Assembly (NCBI GenBank): GCA_951406725.2
Contig: OX597832.1
Location: forward strand, 60,512,001-60,576,000
Direction: 5' to 3'
DNA: 64,000 nt
From: Octopus vulgaris
Lineage: Eukaryota
Numbering within the stretch: position 1 is the stretch's first letter; each line of letters begins with the position of its first letter. The notes below the pieces were generated by a model that worked only from the letters and a program-made list of their open reading frames with translations, had not been told where the DNA came from and did not search any database. Shown in pieces: positions 27,601-32,169 of this stretch. A program made the position numbers and the translations under genes.

Positions 27601-28821
27601 ATACTATAATAACGAATAACAAAAAACCTTATAAAAATATAAAGTATAATAAAAAATCCTGGAAGTGGAGTTGTGTGTGTGTGTGTGCATACCCATCCAT
27701 GTATGTATGACTGTACGTGTCTCTATGTGTAAGTATGTGTCAGTTCGTTAGTGAGTGTGTGTTTTTGTATATGCCAGGAAATGTGTTTGTGCATTACAAA
27801 GGAAAACGAAATTAAACCTATCAGTTTTTGATAACCCTCCCATGACCCCTTAGTTCCTAACAAAATGAAGAAATAAATAATACCCAGTTCATATAATTTT
27901 CAAAGTAATGAAGAATTTGGAGGTATTTTAATAAAAACAACAAACTGACTATTATTTTATTATCAAGCCATTATTTGGAACATAATGCAAAATGTTGGTA
28001 AATTACAGTTACAACTGACGGCTTATAAATAAATACTTCTGTATAAGTATTTCTGTAGTACAGAATGAAAGGCAATGTTAGGCAGACTGAAGGATAACAA
28101 GACATTTGTATAAAAGTACAACACTAAGTTTTGTTTTTCTGGTGGCGGGAGGTGCTGGTTACTGAATAAGGAATAATTTATTGGAATGAAACATGTTCTT
28201 GGTACATCTTAAATATTGTTTCTATAACTTTCTCTATTCACCCTTCTTTGAAGATTTGAAAAATGTGGAAGTCGATGCCAGCAGGTTTCTGAGCTTGGAG
28301 CCAAGTATCACTAAATAAAATGTCCCTCAGTAATCTAACTTTCAACTGTCTTAGCCATTTGACAGTGACAAAAATTCTAACATATTTCCAGTGTGTGGCA
28401 TCTTGAGTTGGTATCTTCTTCTATAACCATGAATGAAACTTGATAGCAACCTTGTAGAAGCCAATAATAAACTCTACTTACAGTTCTTTCAACAGCAGAT
28501 ATATTGTACTGCATATTTATAAATATTATATTAACATAATTAATGTTGCAGTAATCAGAAGTAGTCAAGTGATTATTTTTCTAGGAGGAGGTGGGGACTG
28601 ATGCTATGCAGTTATCAGGGTCCAGGCTTGATTGGGCGAACATGTCAATGTGACAATTTGTTTAGTTACACTACACTTTCCGAATGTAGTTTCAACCCTG
28701 TGTTTCAACAGAATAAATGAGGCAGAGTAAAGGACAATATTCAGGTTTAAAACTGCCATAGGTGTTTGAGATACCTGAACAAACTTTGAAATAATAGTAG
28801 TAATAATAATTTTTTTTATTT

Positions 28822-28960
28822 TCTTTTTCTACTCTAGGCACAAAGCCTGAAATTTTGGAGGAGGTGGAGGGAGTCGATTTGATCAACGCCAGTATGCAAC
28901 TAGTACTTAATTTATTGACCCCCCCCCCATGCTAACGTTTCTGCCAGCTTGTCACCTTAG
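28822..28960 (-). mobile_element. Internally deleted SINE
   Basis: CTACTCTAGGCACAAAGCCTGAAATTTT...TAGTACTTAATTTATTGACCCC...CATGCTAACGTTTCTGCCAGCTTG. Confidence 0.75.
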
Positions 28961-29826
28961 TAGTAATAACAACAACAATAACAGTAATTAGTAACTACCA
29001 GAAGAGATAGACAAAAACAACTGTTATTCTGTTTACTTTTTCAGCCTGGCATCTCTCATATGTCGTATTTCATGTGAAATATTGATGTCTATTTTACTAT
29101 AATGGTCATATTATTATATCCCATATAGCTATCATTATCATGTGACATATTTTAATGTCAGCTTGACATCAATCACAACAATATTTAGTAATAAATTCAA
29201 TACAAAACTAACATACTAAAATATCGAACAAACTCAATATGATAACCTTTCCGACGTGTATATTATCTTGCACCATTCATGTCTATACTAACATTATTTG
29301 AAATCATTATTTACCGAGCTCTAAAAATACAATCTATATAATCACTATTATAATGGGCATCAGTAATTGAGGTAGTGCAATAGCAGTGTGATAGTGAAGA
29401 CATCCTTCACAAGAGAACTGCAGCATTATCTCATACCTATGCATTAAATTCATCTCAAAACAATAGACATGGAAGCAGCACTGTATTAAAAGTCGTACTG
29501 AAAACCAATGCACCTTGTAACTATTTCAATAACTACCTCCTTCATAGAGACAAATAAATGGCAGGTTTAAGTATGAGCTTAAGAATGCAGGTTATTCACC
29601 CTGCCAACCAACAGTTTACAACAGAGTAAACACATAGGTTATATAACAGACATGGTTGTATTAGACTTTAATATATTTTATTAAGAGTTTTTACATATTT
29701 CTACATAAGTCTTTGATATTTAATTCAGGAAAATAAGGTGTTCTGAAACCTATTAACATTTCCTCAATTTCTTGGCTTTATTGACAGCACAAAGTAGTGA
29801 GAGTGGCACGAGTGCTGTGTCATTAA

Positions 29827-29873
<47 letters not shown>

Positions 29874-29884
29874 TATATAGAAGG

Positions 29885-29935
29885 AGTTTCTACAGGACTA
29901 GAACTGTTTCATTCAAGAGAAATCATCAGGAAGCT
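29885..29935 (-). ncRNA. Mirror hammerhead motif, sense to the muscleblind pre-mRNA
   Basis: Same core on the minus strand; stem I has one C-A mismatch (AGCUUC/GAAACU); predicted cut after 29891. Confidence 0.6.
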
Positions 29936-29982
29936 TCCTGATGATTTCTCTTGAATGAAACAGTTCTAGTCCTGTAGAAGCT
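29932..29982 (+). ncRNA. Type-I hammerhead ribozyme motif
   Basis: AGCUUC-CUGAUGA-U[UUC UCUU GAA]U-GAAA-CAG uucuaguc CUG-UA^-GAAGCU; intact CUGAUGA/GAAA/UH core, 6-bp stem I, predicted cut after 29976. Confidence 0.7.
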
Positions 29983-30065
29983 CCTTCTATATAATAAATT
30001 AATTTTACTCTGCTATGTATTGAGTACCTTATTTACTGTGGTTAACCCCGAATCAACCCGGGACC

Positions 30066-30102
<37 letters not shown>

Positions 30103-30506
30103 TATGAATATATATATCTCTTGAATCTGAAATGGAAAACTTCACTCAGAAGTTTTTGTGCCAAGACCTCAACGACCGTTGCACTTCATCAGCTTATGAA
30201 AGCTTTATGCACAGAAACTCAAAGCCCTGAATGCTATGCATGCGCCATTTAATAAATTTAATTCCCTATTTCCAACAATATTGAGGTCAAATTCTTTTGT
30301 CATTATGCGTGGTTCAATGATATATGCAAAAATATATAATATAATACAATATAAAACTAAAAGTTTCGACAAGTACTGGGAACAATCTAAGTTATTTTAC
30401 TGCTTCACAATTACCGGTATAACTATTTATTGTTTCGGTCAAAAATTAGTGTTTTCATTCCTTCATGGATGAGTTCATGCATGTGTTTGTTTATTTATTT
30501 ACCTAC

Positions 30507-30546
<40 letters not shown>

Positions 30547-30859
30547 GATGTGAGTAGGATTCAATGATTGTAACTGTATAATTTTGTGTTCATGTCTGTG
30601 TGAGGGTGTCACAGTTCCTCTTCTTTCAAAGAGAGATCACAAGCTTTAGCATTTTACACTTGTAAATATATTGTCCAACATATGCAAGACTTACATGCAC
30701 TGCCTAATGATCAACCTTTGACAATGCATCTCGTAGTAATTGCATCATTTTGTTCTTGTTAAAAGTAAAATTATCTACAGAAGCTACACTTTTTAAAACT
30801 GATTTTTCAAAAAAAAATTTTTTTATTAAAATTCAGTCTAAGGATAAAAAATGAATAAT

Positions 30860-30892
30860 TAAATAATAATAATAATAATAATAAAAATAGTA

Positions 30893-30947
<55 letters not shown>
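30860..30947. repeat. (AAT)n microsatellite
   Basis: Long AAT run. Confidence 0.9.
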
Positions 30948-30948
<1 letters not shown>

Positions 30949-31791
30949 GACAACATCAATGGCAATCTGTGTTTTCAAAATTGGGAAAAGAAATTTGAAT
31001 GAAAAAAAGAACGAAAAGAAGAAAAACGTTTCATTTACTACTGAAAGAATTTAGACTAAAAACAAAGTTGAATTTTTACACCCTTTCCTTGTTCCTTCAA
31101 ACCATTTATATATATTTTTTCTTTACAAAACACCAATAACTCCTTAATGTTTGTGCTTTTGCACCCCTGTTCCCTATTTTTTCCTCCAGTTTTGTTTTTA
31201 AACTCATAGAATTTTCTTTTTTTTTTATATATATAAATTTCTATATATTTTTTCTACTTTTCTTTTTTTTTTGGCAAAAAATTCAAAAACAAAATTTGCA
31301 GAAACAATTTTGTTAAATAATGTGAGAAAAATATTAACCATTTCAAAAATTAAAAAAAAAACTGATAATGATGCTAATATGTGGGGTTTTTTTTTTTTTT
31401 TTTATAGTGGGGCTGCTGCTGCTGCTACAAAGTCCATAAGACTTGGTGCAGATATTTGACGAGTGTGACAACCCCCGCACACAACAGATACAGGCACAGT
31501 AGCGAAAGCTGTCAAATGATAAATAACATTATTTAAGGCGAATAATAACAATAAGTGAATTTTAAAAAAAAAAAAAAATTTTTATTTAAACGAAAAAAAT
31601 GTACACACCCACACATGTAAACTACTTTTTTTTTTTTCTTTTGTTAAACAGCGAAATTATCATAATTTAACTTTAACCATCCTGCTTGCCCCCAACAACT
31701 ACAAACACGACAAAAGAAAAAGAAAAAAATACAAAACACAGACAAAAAAGTAGTTAAAATTAATCTTTGGGTTTTCAAAGTGGATGCTCAC

Positions 31792-31983
31792 CTCTAATCT
31801 GTCAGCCCTCGTAACTTTCTGTTGTGCTGTTCCAGGAATTCCTGTAGGCAACACCCCTGGAACTTGAGTGGAGACAACTGTTGCTTCGCTTCCAGTGCCG
31901 GCCACTGGAACGGTTGGTATTGCTGCATTCAAGTAAGGGTTGAACACAGCAGATGTCGGGACTGTGCTTATGTATGGAGGGGC
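31792..31983 (-). CDS. mbl: Muscleblind linker exon (64 codons) ending in the conserved R.DRLE box
   Basis: Pyrimidine tract CCTCCTCCCAG|GCC...TTAGAG|GTGAGC; APPYISTVPTSAVFNPYLNAA...QQKVTRADRLE matches MBNL1 AFNPYL...QKLMRTDRLE; 192 nt, phase 0/0. Confidence 0.95.
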
Positions 31984-32169
31984 CTGGGAGGAGGTAGAGA
32001 GAGAGAGAGAGAGAGAAGGGGGAAAGAAGAAAAAGAAAATACAATGTATAGAATAAGAACTTTGAATTGGAGGTGTGAAAAATGGAAAAACAAAAACAAA
32101 AAACAATTGAGTAATTTACAATTTAAAATATAAATAATGCAATGGAAAAATATTTTAGAAAATCTATCA

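What the first reader, a model, noticed from the sequence alone, without database searches (positions are those of the whole stretch)
29871..29996. Palindromic two-strand hammerhead ribozyme inside a muscleblind intron, masked by its own antisense arm
Seen: a 126-bp palindrome (one mismatch). Each strand spells stem I-CUGAUGA-stem II-GAAA-CAG/CUG stem III-GUA, with a near-palindromic stem III (CAG..CUAG..CUG). Stem II is atypical, with U-U at its base. Known: Penelope-like retroelements carry minimal type-I hammerheads in pseudo-LTRs that can be inverted and can act as dimers, and coleoids have extensive ADAR editing. Inference: in the pre-mRNA the antisense arm is made first and would zip the ribozyme into a 63-bp duplex whose only mismatch is A(29887)-C(29980), a favoured ADAR context. 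Editing or unwinding could release cleavage between the DRLE exon and ZnF3/4, favouring two-finger isoforms. It may instead be a neutral insertion tolerated because it is self-silenced.
Basis: partly seen in the sequence, partly recalled or inferred. Interest (0 to 1): 0.85.

Follow-up and report, generated by a model that had tools for sequence, protein, structure and literature searches.

The report
Head-to-head ribozyme footprint of a retrotransposon
The palindrome is one of well over a thousand near-identical 200-base insertions of a Penelope-like jumping gene, each likely made by joining two DNA copies of the ribozyme-bearing start of the element's RNA, so it likely shows how these elements insert rather than regulating the muscleblind gene.

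Summary
The palindrome, both hammerhead cores and the A·C mismatch are real. The regulatory story is not supported. The feature is a 199-bp insertion (29871-30069) in a (TA)n tract: two head-to-head hammerhead arms plus a 73-bp tail on one side. It is the shortest product of a young Hydra-clade Penelope-like retroelement; intact 713-aa RT/GIY-YIG copies with this ribozyme in their pseudo-LTRs lie in the same genome. A junction pattern gives 1,937 hits genome-wide; 15 of 15 other top copies are perfect palindromes, so the mismatch is private, and editing it would tighten the duplex. The U·U stem II base is common among Hydra-clade ribozymes. What is new: in 39 sampled palindromes no arm runs past the first base of ribozyme stem I, an extra G often precedes it, and TATAAA sits 29 bases upstream in the parent. 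Both arms share subfamily variants. Best reading: two reverse transcriptases prime on opposite target strands, run off a capped RNA that begins at the ribozyme, and their cDNA ends join. RNA start, cap and cleavage are inferred, not measured.

The parts
29831..29868 (.). (TA)n target tract, left side
   Evidence: every family copy examined sits in (TA)n
29871..29935 (-). Short arm without tail: copy of the hammerhead and ~14 nt 3' of it; inferred second cDNA, primed at the TA-rich site where the tail begins
29885..29935 (-). Type I hammerhead in the sense of the muscleblind pre-mRNA; predicted cut 29891|29890; stem I broken by the private change at 29887
29887..29887 (-). Private G-to-A change (A·C mismatch with 29980) at stem I position 1.4, the most often altered position among sampled arms
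29932..29935 (.). AGCT junction shared by both arms; first four bases of stem I and inferred 5' end of the element RNA
29932..29982 (+). Family-type hammerhead: stem I 29932-37/29977-82, core 29938-44, stem II 29945-56, GAA 29957-59, stem III 29960-75, predicted cut 29976|29977
   Evidence: Hydra-clade layout
29997..30069 (+). 73-bp tail present on one side only; in full elements it is followed by the ORF leader
30070..30097 (.). (TA)n target tract, right side
31792..31983 (-). Muscleblind-like exon ending RADRLE; its donor site lies 1.7 kb from the insertion
12044..12286 (-). Muscleblind-like tandem CCCH zinc-finger exon; acceptor 17.6 kb from the insertion

Best explanation
This is a recent 199-bp insertion of a Hydra-clade Penelope-like retroelement, likely formed when two cDNAs copied from the ribozyme-bearing 5' leader of the element's RNA were joined end to end, and it is likely neutral for muscleblind because its ribozyme is predicted to stay zipped in a hairpin. 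Shown: parent element, copy number, (TA)n target, one-sided tail, sharp stop of both arms at the first base of stem I, excess G before that base, TATAAA 29 bases upstream, shared variants in both arms. Inferred: a TATA promoter in the pseudo-LTR starts a capped RNA at the A of AGCUUC; the RT/endonuclease nicks both strands of (TA)n and primes at the two ends of the tail; both cDNAs (about 138 and 65 nt) run off the uncut RNA's cap, often gaining a C, and anneal through AGCT or 1-2 base matches. Long copies arise when priming is at a downstream pseudo-LTR or on a tandem or circular RNA.
For: Parent: 5.1-kb unit with this ribozyme and tail at both ends, ORF starting ~45 nt after the tail; intact 713-aa ORFs in 2 of 16 loci with the Hydra-clade motifs of PMC8557442 section 11. 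Copy number: 354 exact junctions, 1,937 hits of a looser junction pattern against 41 at stem III and 29 near the cleavage site, and 2,144 arms that read through. Sharp stop: 0 of 78 arms in 39 loci match the native sequence beyond AGCTTC, 36 reach it exactly. Extra G: 14 of 16 such arms in non-exact junctions; 44 of 78 listed arms joined close to (TA)n, 31 of them as a single G between target and arm, where the parent has T (hand count). TATAAA-to-A distance 29. Same template: arms agree at N7 in 39 of 39, loop II 38 of 39, loop III 30 of 32, post-stem 33 of 33, against 0.38-0.62 expected. Independent births: 16 junction classes in 39 loci. Two cDNAs: the extra base lies on either strand and long insertions have unequal arms not joined at a mirror point (L049). 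9 of 29 copies carrying the tail-to-ORF junction also stop inside AGCTTC. PMC11167929 shows in vitro priming on both strands, two internal start sites that bound the tail, and uncut RNA as template.
Against: No RNA data: start site, cap, cleavage and expression are unmeasured (no RNA holder listed). In palindromic junctions the G can come from the partner arm, and beside (TA)n it can come from the target; an untemplated C needs no cap. Every arm listed from the top RT-containing loci reads through AGCTTC, as do 12 of 29 tail-to-ORF copies, so a second template type must be invoked. One of three loci skipped by the script (L136) matches one native base further. Short palindromes alone cannot separate two cDNAs from one cDNA folding back. 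Neutrality for muscleblind is inferred from youth, copy number and folding only; occupancy of this site in other species or animals was not resolved.
Confidence: 0.72

Rival explanations
1. Same element and same RNA 5' end, but one cDNA snaps back on itself at its 3' end and copies itself to make the second arm.
For: Arm concordance fits equally. The two commonest junctions (10 and 9 of 39) can be drawn as tiny hairpins at the cDNA end.
Against: The extra base occurs on the tailed and on the untailed strand alike; some junctions keep both ends whole with a G between (L061; C1:48434469); long insertions are not mirror-joined.
Confidence: 0.15
2. The short palindrome is itself a mobile non-autonomous unit (MITE- or SINE-like) copied from a few palindromic masters.
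For: Hundreds of copies share one exact junction; 40 scored copies are 97-100% identical.
Against: 16 junction classes spread over several subfamily haplotypes, and the untailed end varies copy by copy; the tail lies outside the inverted repeat; the copy lacks the upstream TATA and the ORF leader.
Confidence: 0.06
3. One reading: the insertion has been co-opted; ADAR editing or unwinding frees the ribozyme, which cuts the muscleblind intron and favours two-finger isoforms.
For: It lies in the intron just before the tandem zinc-finger exon, the antisense arm is transcribed first, and the mismatch is A·C.
Against: Mismatch private and at the family's most error-prone base; editing it tightens the hairpin; with 30% of A edited the core survives in 36 of 200 trials while the hairpin keeps about -96 kcal/mol (G used for I, which understates destabilisation); 0-1 differences from the parent; the anole PLE ribozyme cut only with its protein (PMC11167929).
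Confidence: 0.03
4. Assembly fold-back artefact at this locus.
For: No read or contig laid here spans the element and its unique flanks.
Against: About 1,800 such loci with unique flanks, varied junctions and a one-sided tail; raw reads of run X21 show a head-to-head junction (3 reads) and X9 contigs cross the centre, at family level.
Confidence: 0.02

Closest known systems
Hydra clade of Penelope-like elements (Craig et al. 2021, PMC8557442; includes Hydra-1_Obim from Octopus bimaculoides)
   Same: Single ORF, RT then GIY-YIG; RW(K/R), DKT, CxCX5C, CxxC and CxH, no CCHH; (TA)n target; hammerhead near the 3' end, often with U before and after stem II; 5' inverted truncated copy and one-sided tail.
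   Different: A different family from Hydra-1_Obim (other ribozyme sequence). Unit is 5.1 kb, not under 3 kb, through a simple-repeat-rich 3' region; tail is 73 bp, not 30-40; the passages and supplement parts I read do not describe a dominant class of ~200-bp palindromes ending at the ribozyme's first base.
Poseidon element of Anolis carolinensis, in vitro (Frangieh et al. 2024, PMC11167929)
   Same: Two internal RT start sites bound the tail; both target strands are cut and extended; AT-rich target; uncut RNA is the template; predicted protein dimer.
   Different: Other clade; there the ORF starts inside the ribozyme. The parts I read do not map the RNA 5' end or show how the two cDNAs are joined; this genome records both.
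Hammerheads in PLE pseudo-LTRs (Cervera and De la Pena 2014, PMC4209133)
   Same: Type I motif in pseudo-LTRs; opposite-strand pairs 100-700 bp apart were noted in Schistosoma; palindromic loop III suggests dimers.
   Different: Here stem III has 4 bp and an 8-nt loop, and the opposite-strand pairs abut with shared AGCT.
Non-LTR retrozymes (bioRxiv 10.64898/2026.07.22.740005)
   Same: Non-autonomous, hammerhead-bearing PLE derivatives; this family has made 271-, 277- and 333-bp tandem arrays of that kind.
   Different: The window copy is head-to-head, not tandem, and lacks the promoter part, so it is likely a dead end.
Conserved intronic ribozymes of animals (CPEB3 HDV-like, amniote HH9/HH10; recalled, not looked up beyond a search listing)
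   Same: A self-cleaving motif inside an intron of an RNA-regulatory gene.
   Different: Those are single-copy and conserved; this is young, multi-copy and masked.

Membership tests
Hydra-clade PLE (parent element) | Single ORF with RT and C-terminal GIY-YIG endonuclease | tested here: met
   713-aa ORF with YRDDG and LVYKC...SYIG; homologues carry PF01541. Pfam scan of the protein itself gave no curated hit and only a weak RVT_1 hit for the RT part.
Hydra-clade PLE (parent element) | RWK and DKT motifs | tested here: met
   RWR and DKT; RWR also in Hydra-1_Crog
Hydra-clade PLE (parent element) | CxCX5C linker; CxxC and CxH around the E and N; no CCHH | tested here: met
   CNCHDKTTC, CDLC, CMH read by eye
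Hydra-clade PLE (parent element) | Insertion into (TA)n | tested here: met
Hydra-clade PLE (parent element) | Hammerhead in pseudo-LTR; partial tandems; inverted 5' copy; one-sided tail | tested here: met
Hydra-clade PLE (parent element) | Generally shorter than 3 kb (descriptive, not diagnostic) | tested here: not met
   unit about 5.1 kb
Hydra-clade PLE (parent element) | Placement in the Hydra clade on an RT tree | not tested
   no named reference proteins were held as tool records
Type I hammerhead ribozyme | CUGANGA and GAAA core, NUH site, three stems | tested here: met
   in 295 ungapped arms the common substitutions are at N7, two loop II and one loop III position; two stem I positions also pass 5%, mostly through 1-nt deletions. 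Rfam models did not hit.
Type I hammerhead ribozyme | Self-cleavage (monomer, dimer or protein-assisted) | not testable with these tools
   isolated family arm is predicted to reach the fold weakly (-7.3 kcal/mol, 3.6% of ensemble)
MITE / DNA transposon | Inverted repeats at both ends and a transposase partner | tested here: not met
   73-bp tail outside the repeat; partner encodes RT and GIY-YIG
Non-LTR retrozyme | Head-to-tail tandem units each with a hammerhead | tested here: not met
   window copy is head-to-head; met by the arrays on C2, C5, C8
Conserved regulatory intronic ribozyme | Conserved at the orthologous site | tested here: inconclusive
   contigs of organisms B, C, D break at the (TA)n tract
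Conserved regulatory intronic ribozyme | Single-copy, able to fold in the host transcript | tested here: not met

The most novel reading that the evidence does not exclude
Penelope-like elements insert by making two first strands at once: a dimer primes on both target strands, both copies run to the cap of an RNA that begins exactly at the hammerhead, and the two cDNAs prime each other. The linear mRNA then yields mostly ~200-bp ribozyme palindromes, full copies need a tandem or circular RNA, and the palindromes, once transcribed in introns, form hairpins against the parent's own leader, a built-in brake.
Probability: 0.45. Interest if true: 0.72.

Novelty: new variant of a known kind. Interest (0 to 1): 0.5.

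Why it matters
How Penelope-like elements form their inverted 5' copies, and what their hammerhead does, are stated as open in PMC8557442 and PMC11167929. About 1,800 junctions in one genome point to a base-exact RNA start at the ribozyme, a cap-like extra base and paired cDNA synthesis, each testable by 5' mapping and an existing in vitro assay. The family looks recently active, with intact ORFs and fresh retrozyme-like arrays. It also warns that such palindromes can be mistaken for MITEs, microRNA hairpins or editing sites: the family base at 29887 equals the edited base, so reads from other copies would mimic editing.

Tried and rejected
Rfam at E up to 10 over 28000-32000: no hammerhead; only sub-threshold microRNA hits to hairpins. 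DNA search with the tail alone found nothing, which the tool ascribes to common words; not evidence. Genomic trace of cleavage: junctions near the cut site number 29 (15 exact), like the 41 at stem III (5 exact at CTAG), so no excess. A 3' splice site at TAG|CTTC as the RNA boundary, as in D. virilis Penelope: rejected because arms keep the A and G and carry no constant upstream exon. Introns in the parent ORF: rejected; the short 501-aa frames come from a 1-bp frameshift at the RT/endonuclease border. No RNA holder listed. Laying X21, X6, X9, X10: family present in organisms B, C, D; X21 had no reads on the unique flanks; site occupancy and the 29887 allele unresolved. No earlier scan findings. 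Literature searches listed no paper describing this palindrome class, an octopus hammerhead palindrome, or a PLE start site at the ribozyme; the library lacks most subscription papers and Repbase/Dfam, and bioRxiv supplements were closed. Intronic orientation bias could not be tested (no annotation) and has little meaning for a symmetric element.

Full report
Observation. The 126-bp palindrome at 29871-29996 is real, with no spacer and one mismatch, T29887 against G29980; it folds 23 SD below shuffles. Each strand carries a type I hammerhead layout with a 6-bp stem I (AGCUUC/GAAGCU), 3-bp stem II on a U·U, and 4-bp stem III with an 8-nt loop. Rfam did not detect it and a loose core pattern is not above chance in the window. 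It lies in a 19.5-kb intron (31791-12287, minus strand) of a muscleblind-like gene, 1.7 kb from the donor; the next exon matches MBNL zinc fingers. That these are fingers 3/4 follows from the better-scoring PDB entries as I recall them; fingers 1/2 were not found in the window. I did not test the host's taxon.

It is a repeat. A DNA search scored 40 of 1,359 candidates, all 97-100% identical. All 15 other loci fetched are perfect palindromes with C at the position of 29887. In 14 of those 15, as in the window, a tail follows one arm, and (TA)n flanks both ends. The element is therefore 29871-30069.

The parent. Exact hammerhead matches often come as opposite-strand pairs from 34 bp to 5 kb apart. 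One long pair held an RT. Searching with it gave 119 scored of 16,920 candidates, the best 97-99% identical. Sixteen loci of 9.9 kb show a unit of about 5.1 kb with hammerhead and tail at both ends and an ORF starting about 45 nt after the upstream tail; 2 of 16 have an intact 713-aa RT plus GIY-YIG ORF, and most others a frameshift at the domain border. The protein has RWR, DKT, CxCX5C, CxxC and CxH and lacks CCHH, matching the Hydra clade in PMC8557442 (section 11 read whole; other passages; supplement searches and part 2 of 59). 1,081 homologues at E up to 1e-20 were found among 8,000 scored, nearly all unnamed. The window's tailed arm differs from parent pseudo-LTRs by 0-3 bases in 136.

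The junction hot spot. In the parent the bases before the core read ...TTAA(C/A)TAGCTTC, so the palindrome centre is the AGCT that opens stem I. Exact junctions number 354; a pattern allowing either N7 and up to 30 bases between cores gives 1,937 hits. Of the 50 listed hits, 2 were nested duplicates and 2 were unrelated palindromes, so I estimate about 1,800 loci. Comparable patterns give 41 junctions at stem III and 29 near the cleavage site; 2,144 arms read through into native upstream sequence. I fetched 44 of the 48 distinct listed places, dropped the 2 unrelated ones, and the script skipped 3 complex junctions. In the remaining 39 loci none of 78 arms matches native sequence beyond AGCTTC and 36 reach it exactly; one skipped locus, L136, matches one base further.

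Why there. In the commonest parent type TATAAA begins 29 bases before that A. Where an arm reaches the A in a non-exact junction, the base before it is G in 14 of 16; the parent has T. Because the partner arm can supply that G, I searched arms joined directly to (TA)n: among 78 distinct places in the 100 listed rows (18 rows not listed), the base is G in 44, C 13, T 12, A 9, with 31 single-G joints (counted by hand). A G there means a C at the cDNA 3' end, as copying a cap gives (established knowledge, recalled); terminal addition or a target G remain possible. Nine of 29 dispersed copies with the tail-to-ORF junction also stop inside AGCTTC, 12 read through and 8 are cut shorter; I did not check that the nine are full length. 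All arms listed from the top RT loci read through, which a single linear template does not explain; tandem or circular RNA is needed for these.

One template, two cDNAs. The arms agree at four subfamily sites far above independent pairing (39/39, 38/39, 30/32, 33/33 against 0.52, 0.38, 0.62, 0.58), yet show 16 junction classes and variable untailed ends, so the palindromes formed many times. The extra base lies on either strand, and in L049 a 1.4-kb inverted arm joins a 3.1-kb direct arm away from any mirror point. PMC11167929 (parts 1-2 of 4 read) reports for an anole PLE that both target strands are cut and extended, that RT starts at two internal sites bounding the tail, that uncut RNA is the main template and that the ribozyme needs the protein. 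Applied here: priming at the two ends of the tail on a capped leader gives cDNAs of about 138 and 65 nt that meet at the RNA 5' end. Fold-back of one cDNA is the main rival. The lack of excess junctions at the cut site fits uncut templates.

Is the ribozyme real? In 295 ungapped arms the common substitutions sit at N7, two loop II and one loop III position; core and stems II and III are near invariant; two stem I positions pass 5% mainly through deletions that shift the ungapped match. The family is too young for covariation. Activity is untested; PMC4209133 (parts 1-2 of 4) found metazoan PLE ribozymes weak in vitro.

Muscleblind regulation. On the minus strand the hairpin is -99.8 kcal/mol and the ribozyme fold of the sense arm -0.6, against -7.3 for the family arm. 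Editing A29887 gives -106.5. Random A-to-G at 30% of A leaves -95.9 with the core intact in 36 of 200 trials; at 50%, 8 of 200 (G overstates I·U pairing). The mutated G is the most often altered arm position (8 of 51 events, duplicates not fully removed; 24 of 181 palindrome arms against 5 of 110 read-through arms deviate in that segment). No RNA run was available, and laid contigs and reads did not resolve the site in other animals or species, though the family occurs in organisms B, C and D. A modest effect of a 63-bp intronic hairpin cannot be excluded; Penelope inverted repeats yield siRNA in Drosophila (PMC3681739, passages).

Novelty. The clade, target, tail, inverted copy and opposite-strand ribozyme pairs are known. 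Searches listed nothing on a dominant minimal palindrome class or on an RNA start at the ribozyme; an octopus repeat annotation mentions neither palindromes nor hammerheads in its main text (PMC13282606, passages); the retrozyme preprint (part 1 of 5 and passages; supplements closed) treats tandem forms. Verdict: a new variant of a known kind; the host-regulation claim falls, the retrotransposition record is the point of interest. Interest 0.5.

Noticed in passing
G000:C2:64628578-64632019, C5:37481669-37488945, C8:91475364-91483207 (L177-L189, L199-L206): Tandem arrays of 277, 333 and 271 bp, each unit holding TATA, hammerhead, tail and about 100 nt of leader and ORF start; each array is split into a minus-strand and a plus-strand block. 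Retrozyme-like deletion derivatives of the same element.
   Followed up: partly
L097-L112, RT/endonuclease border: 11 of 16 long copies share a frameshift that ends the ORF just after the RT, giving a 501-aa RT-only protein in many; a frameshifted lineage seems to have spread.
   Followed up: no
stem I 3' strand, window 29977-29982 and mirror: Recurrent one-arm deletions of G at stem I positions 1.1 and 1.4, next to the cleavage site; may be RT errors, deamination or hairpin sequencing errors.
   Followed up: partly
L207 (G000:C7:106788300-106789600), L208: Short direct repeats of 154 and 125 bp in which the ORF leader jumps back to the start of stem I or to just before the cut site, like template jumps between RNA ends.
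   Followed up: no
L149 (C1:21588448) and L165 (C1:38426543): Unrelated long imperfect palindromes caught by the junction pattern; probably MITEs.
   Followed up: no
L048:992-4111 minus strand: A different retroelement with endonuclease and RT frames lies between the two arms of one insertion.
   Followed up: no
L104:5700-8350: The parent's 2.7-kb 3' region is mostly (TA)/(TG)/(CA) simple repeat and is carried from copy to copy, so the element may seed microsatellites.
   Followed up: no
window 11600-12044 minus strand: The reading frame of the zinc-finger exon stays open for about 145 codons past the likely donor at 12043, allowing an alternative C-terminus if the intron is retained.
   Followed up: no
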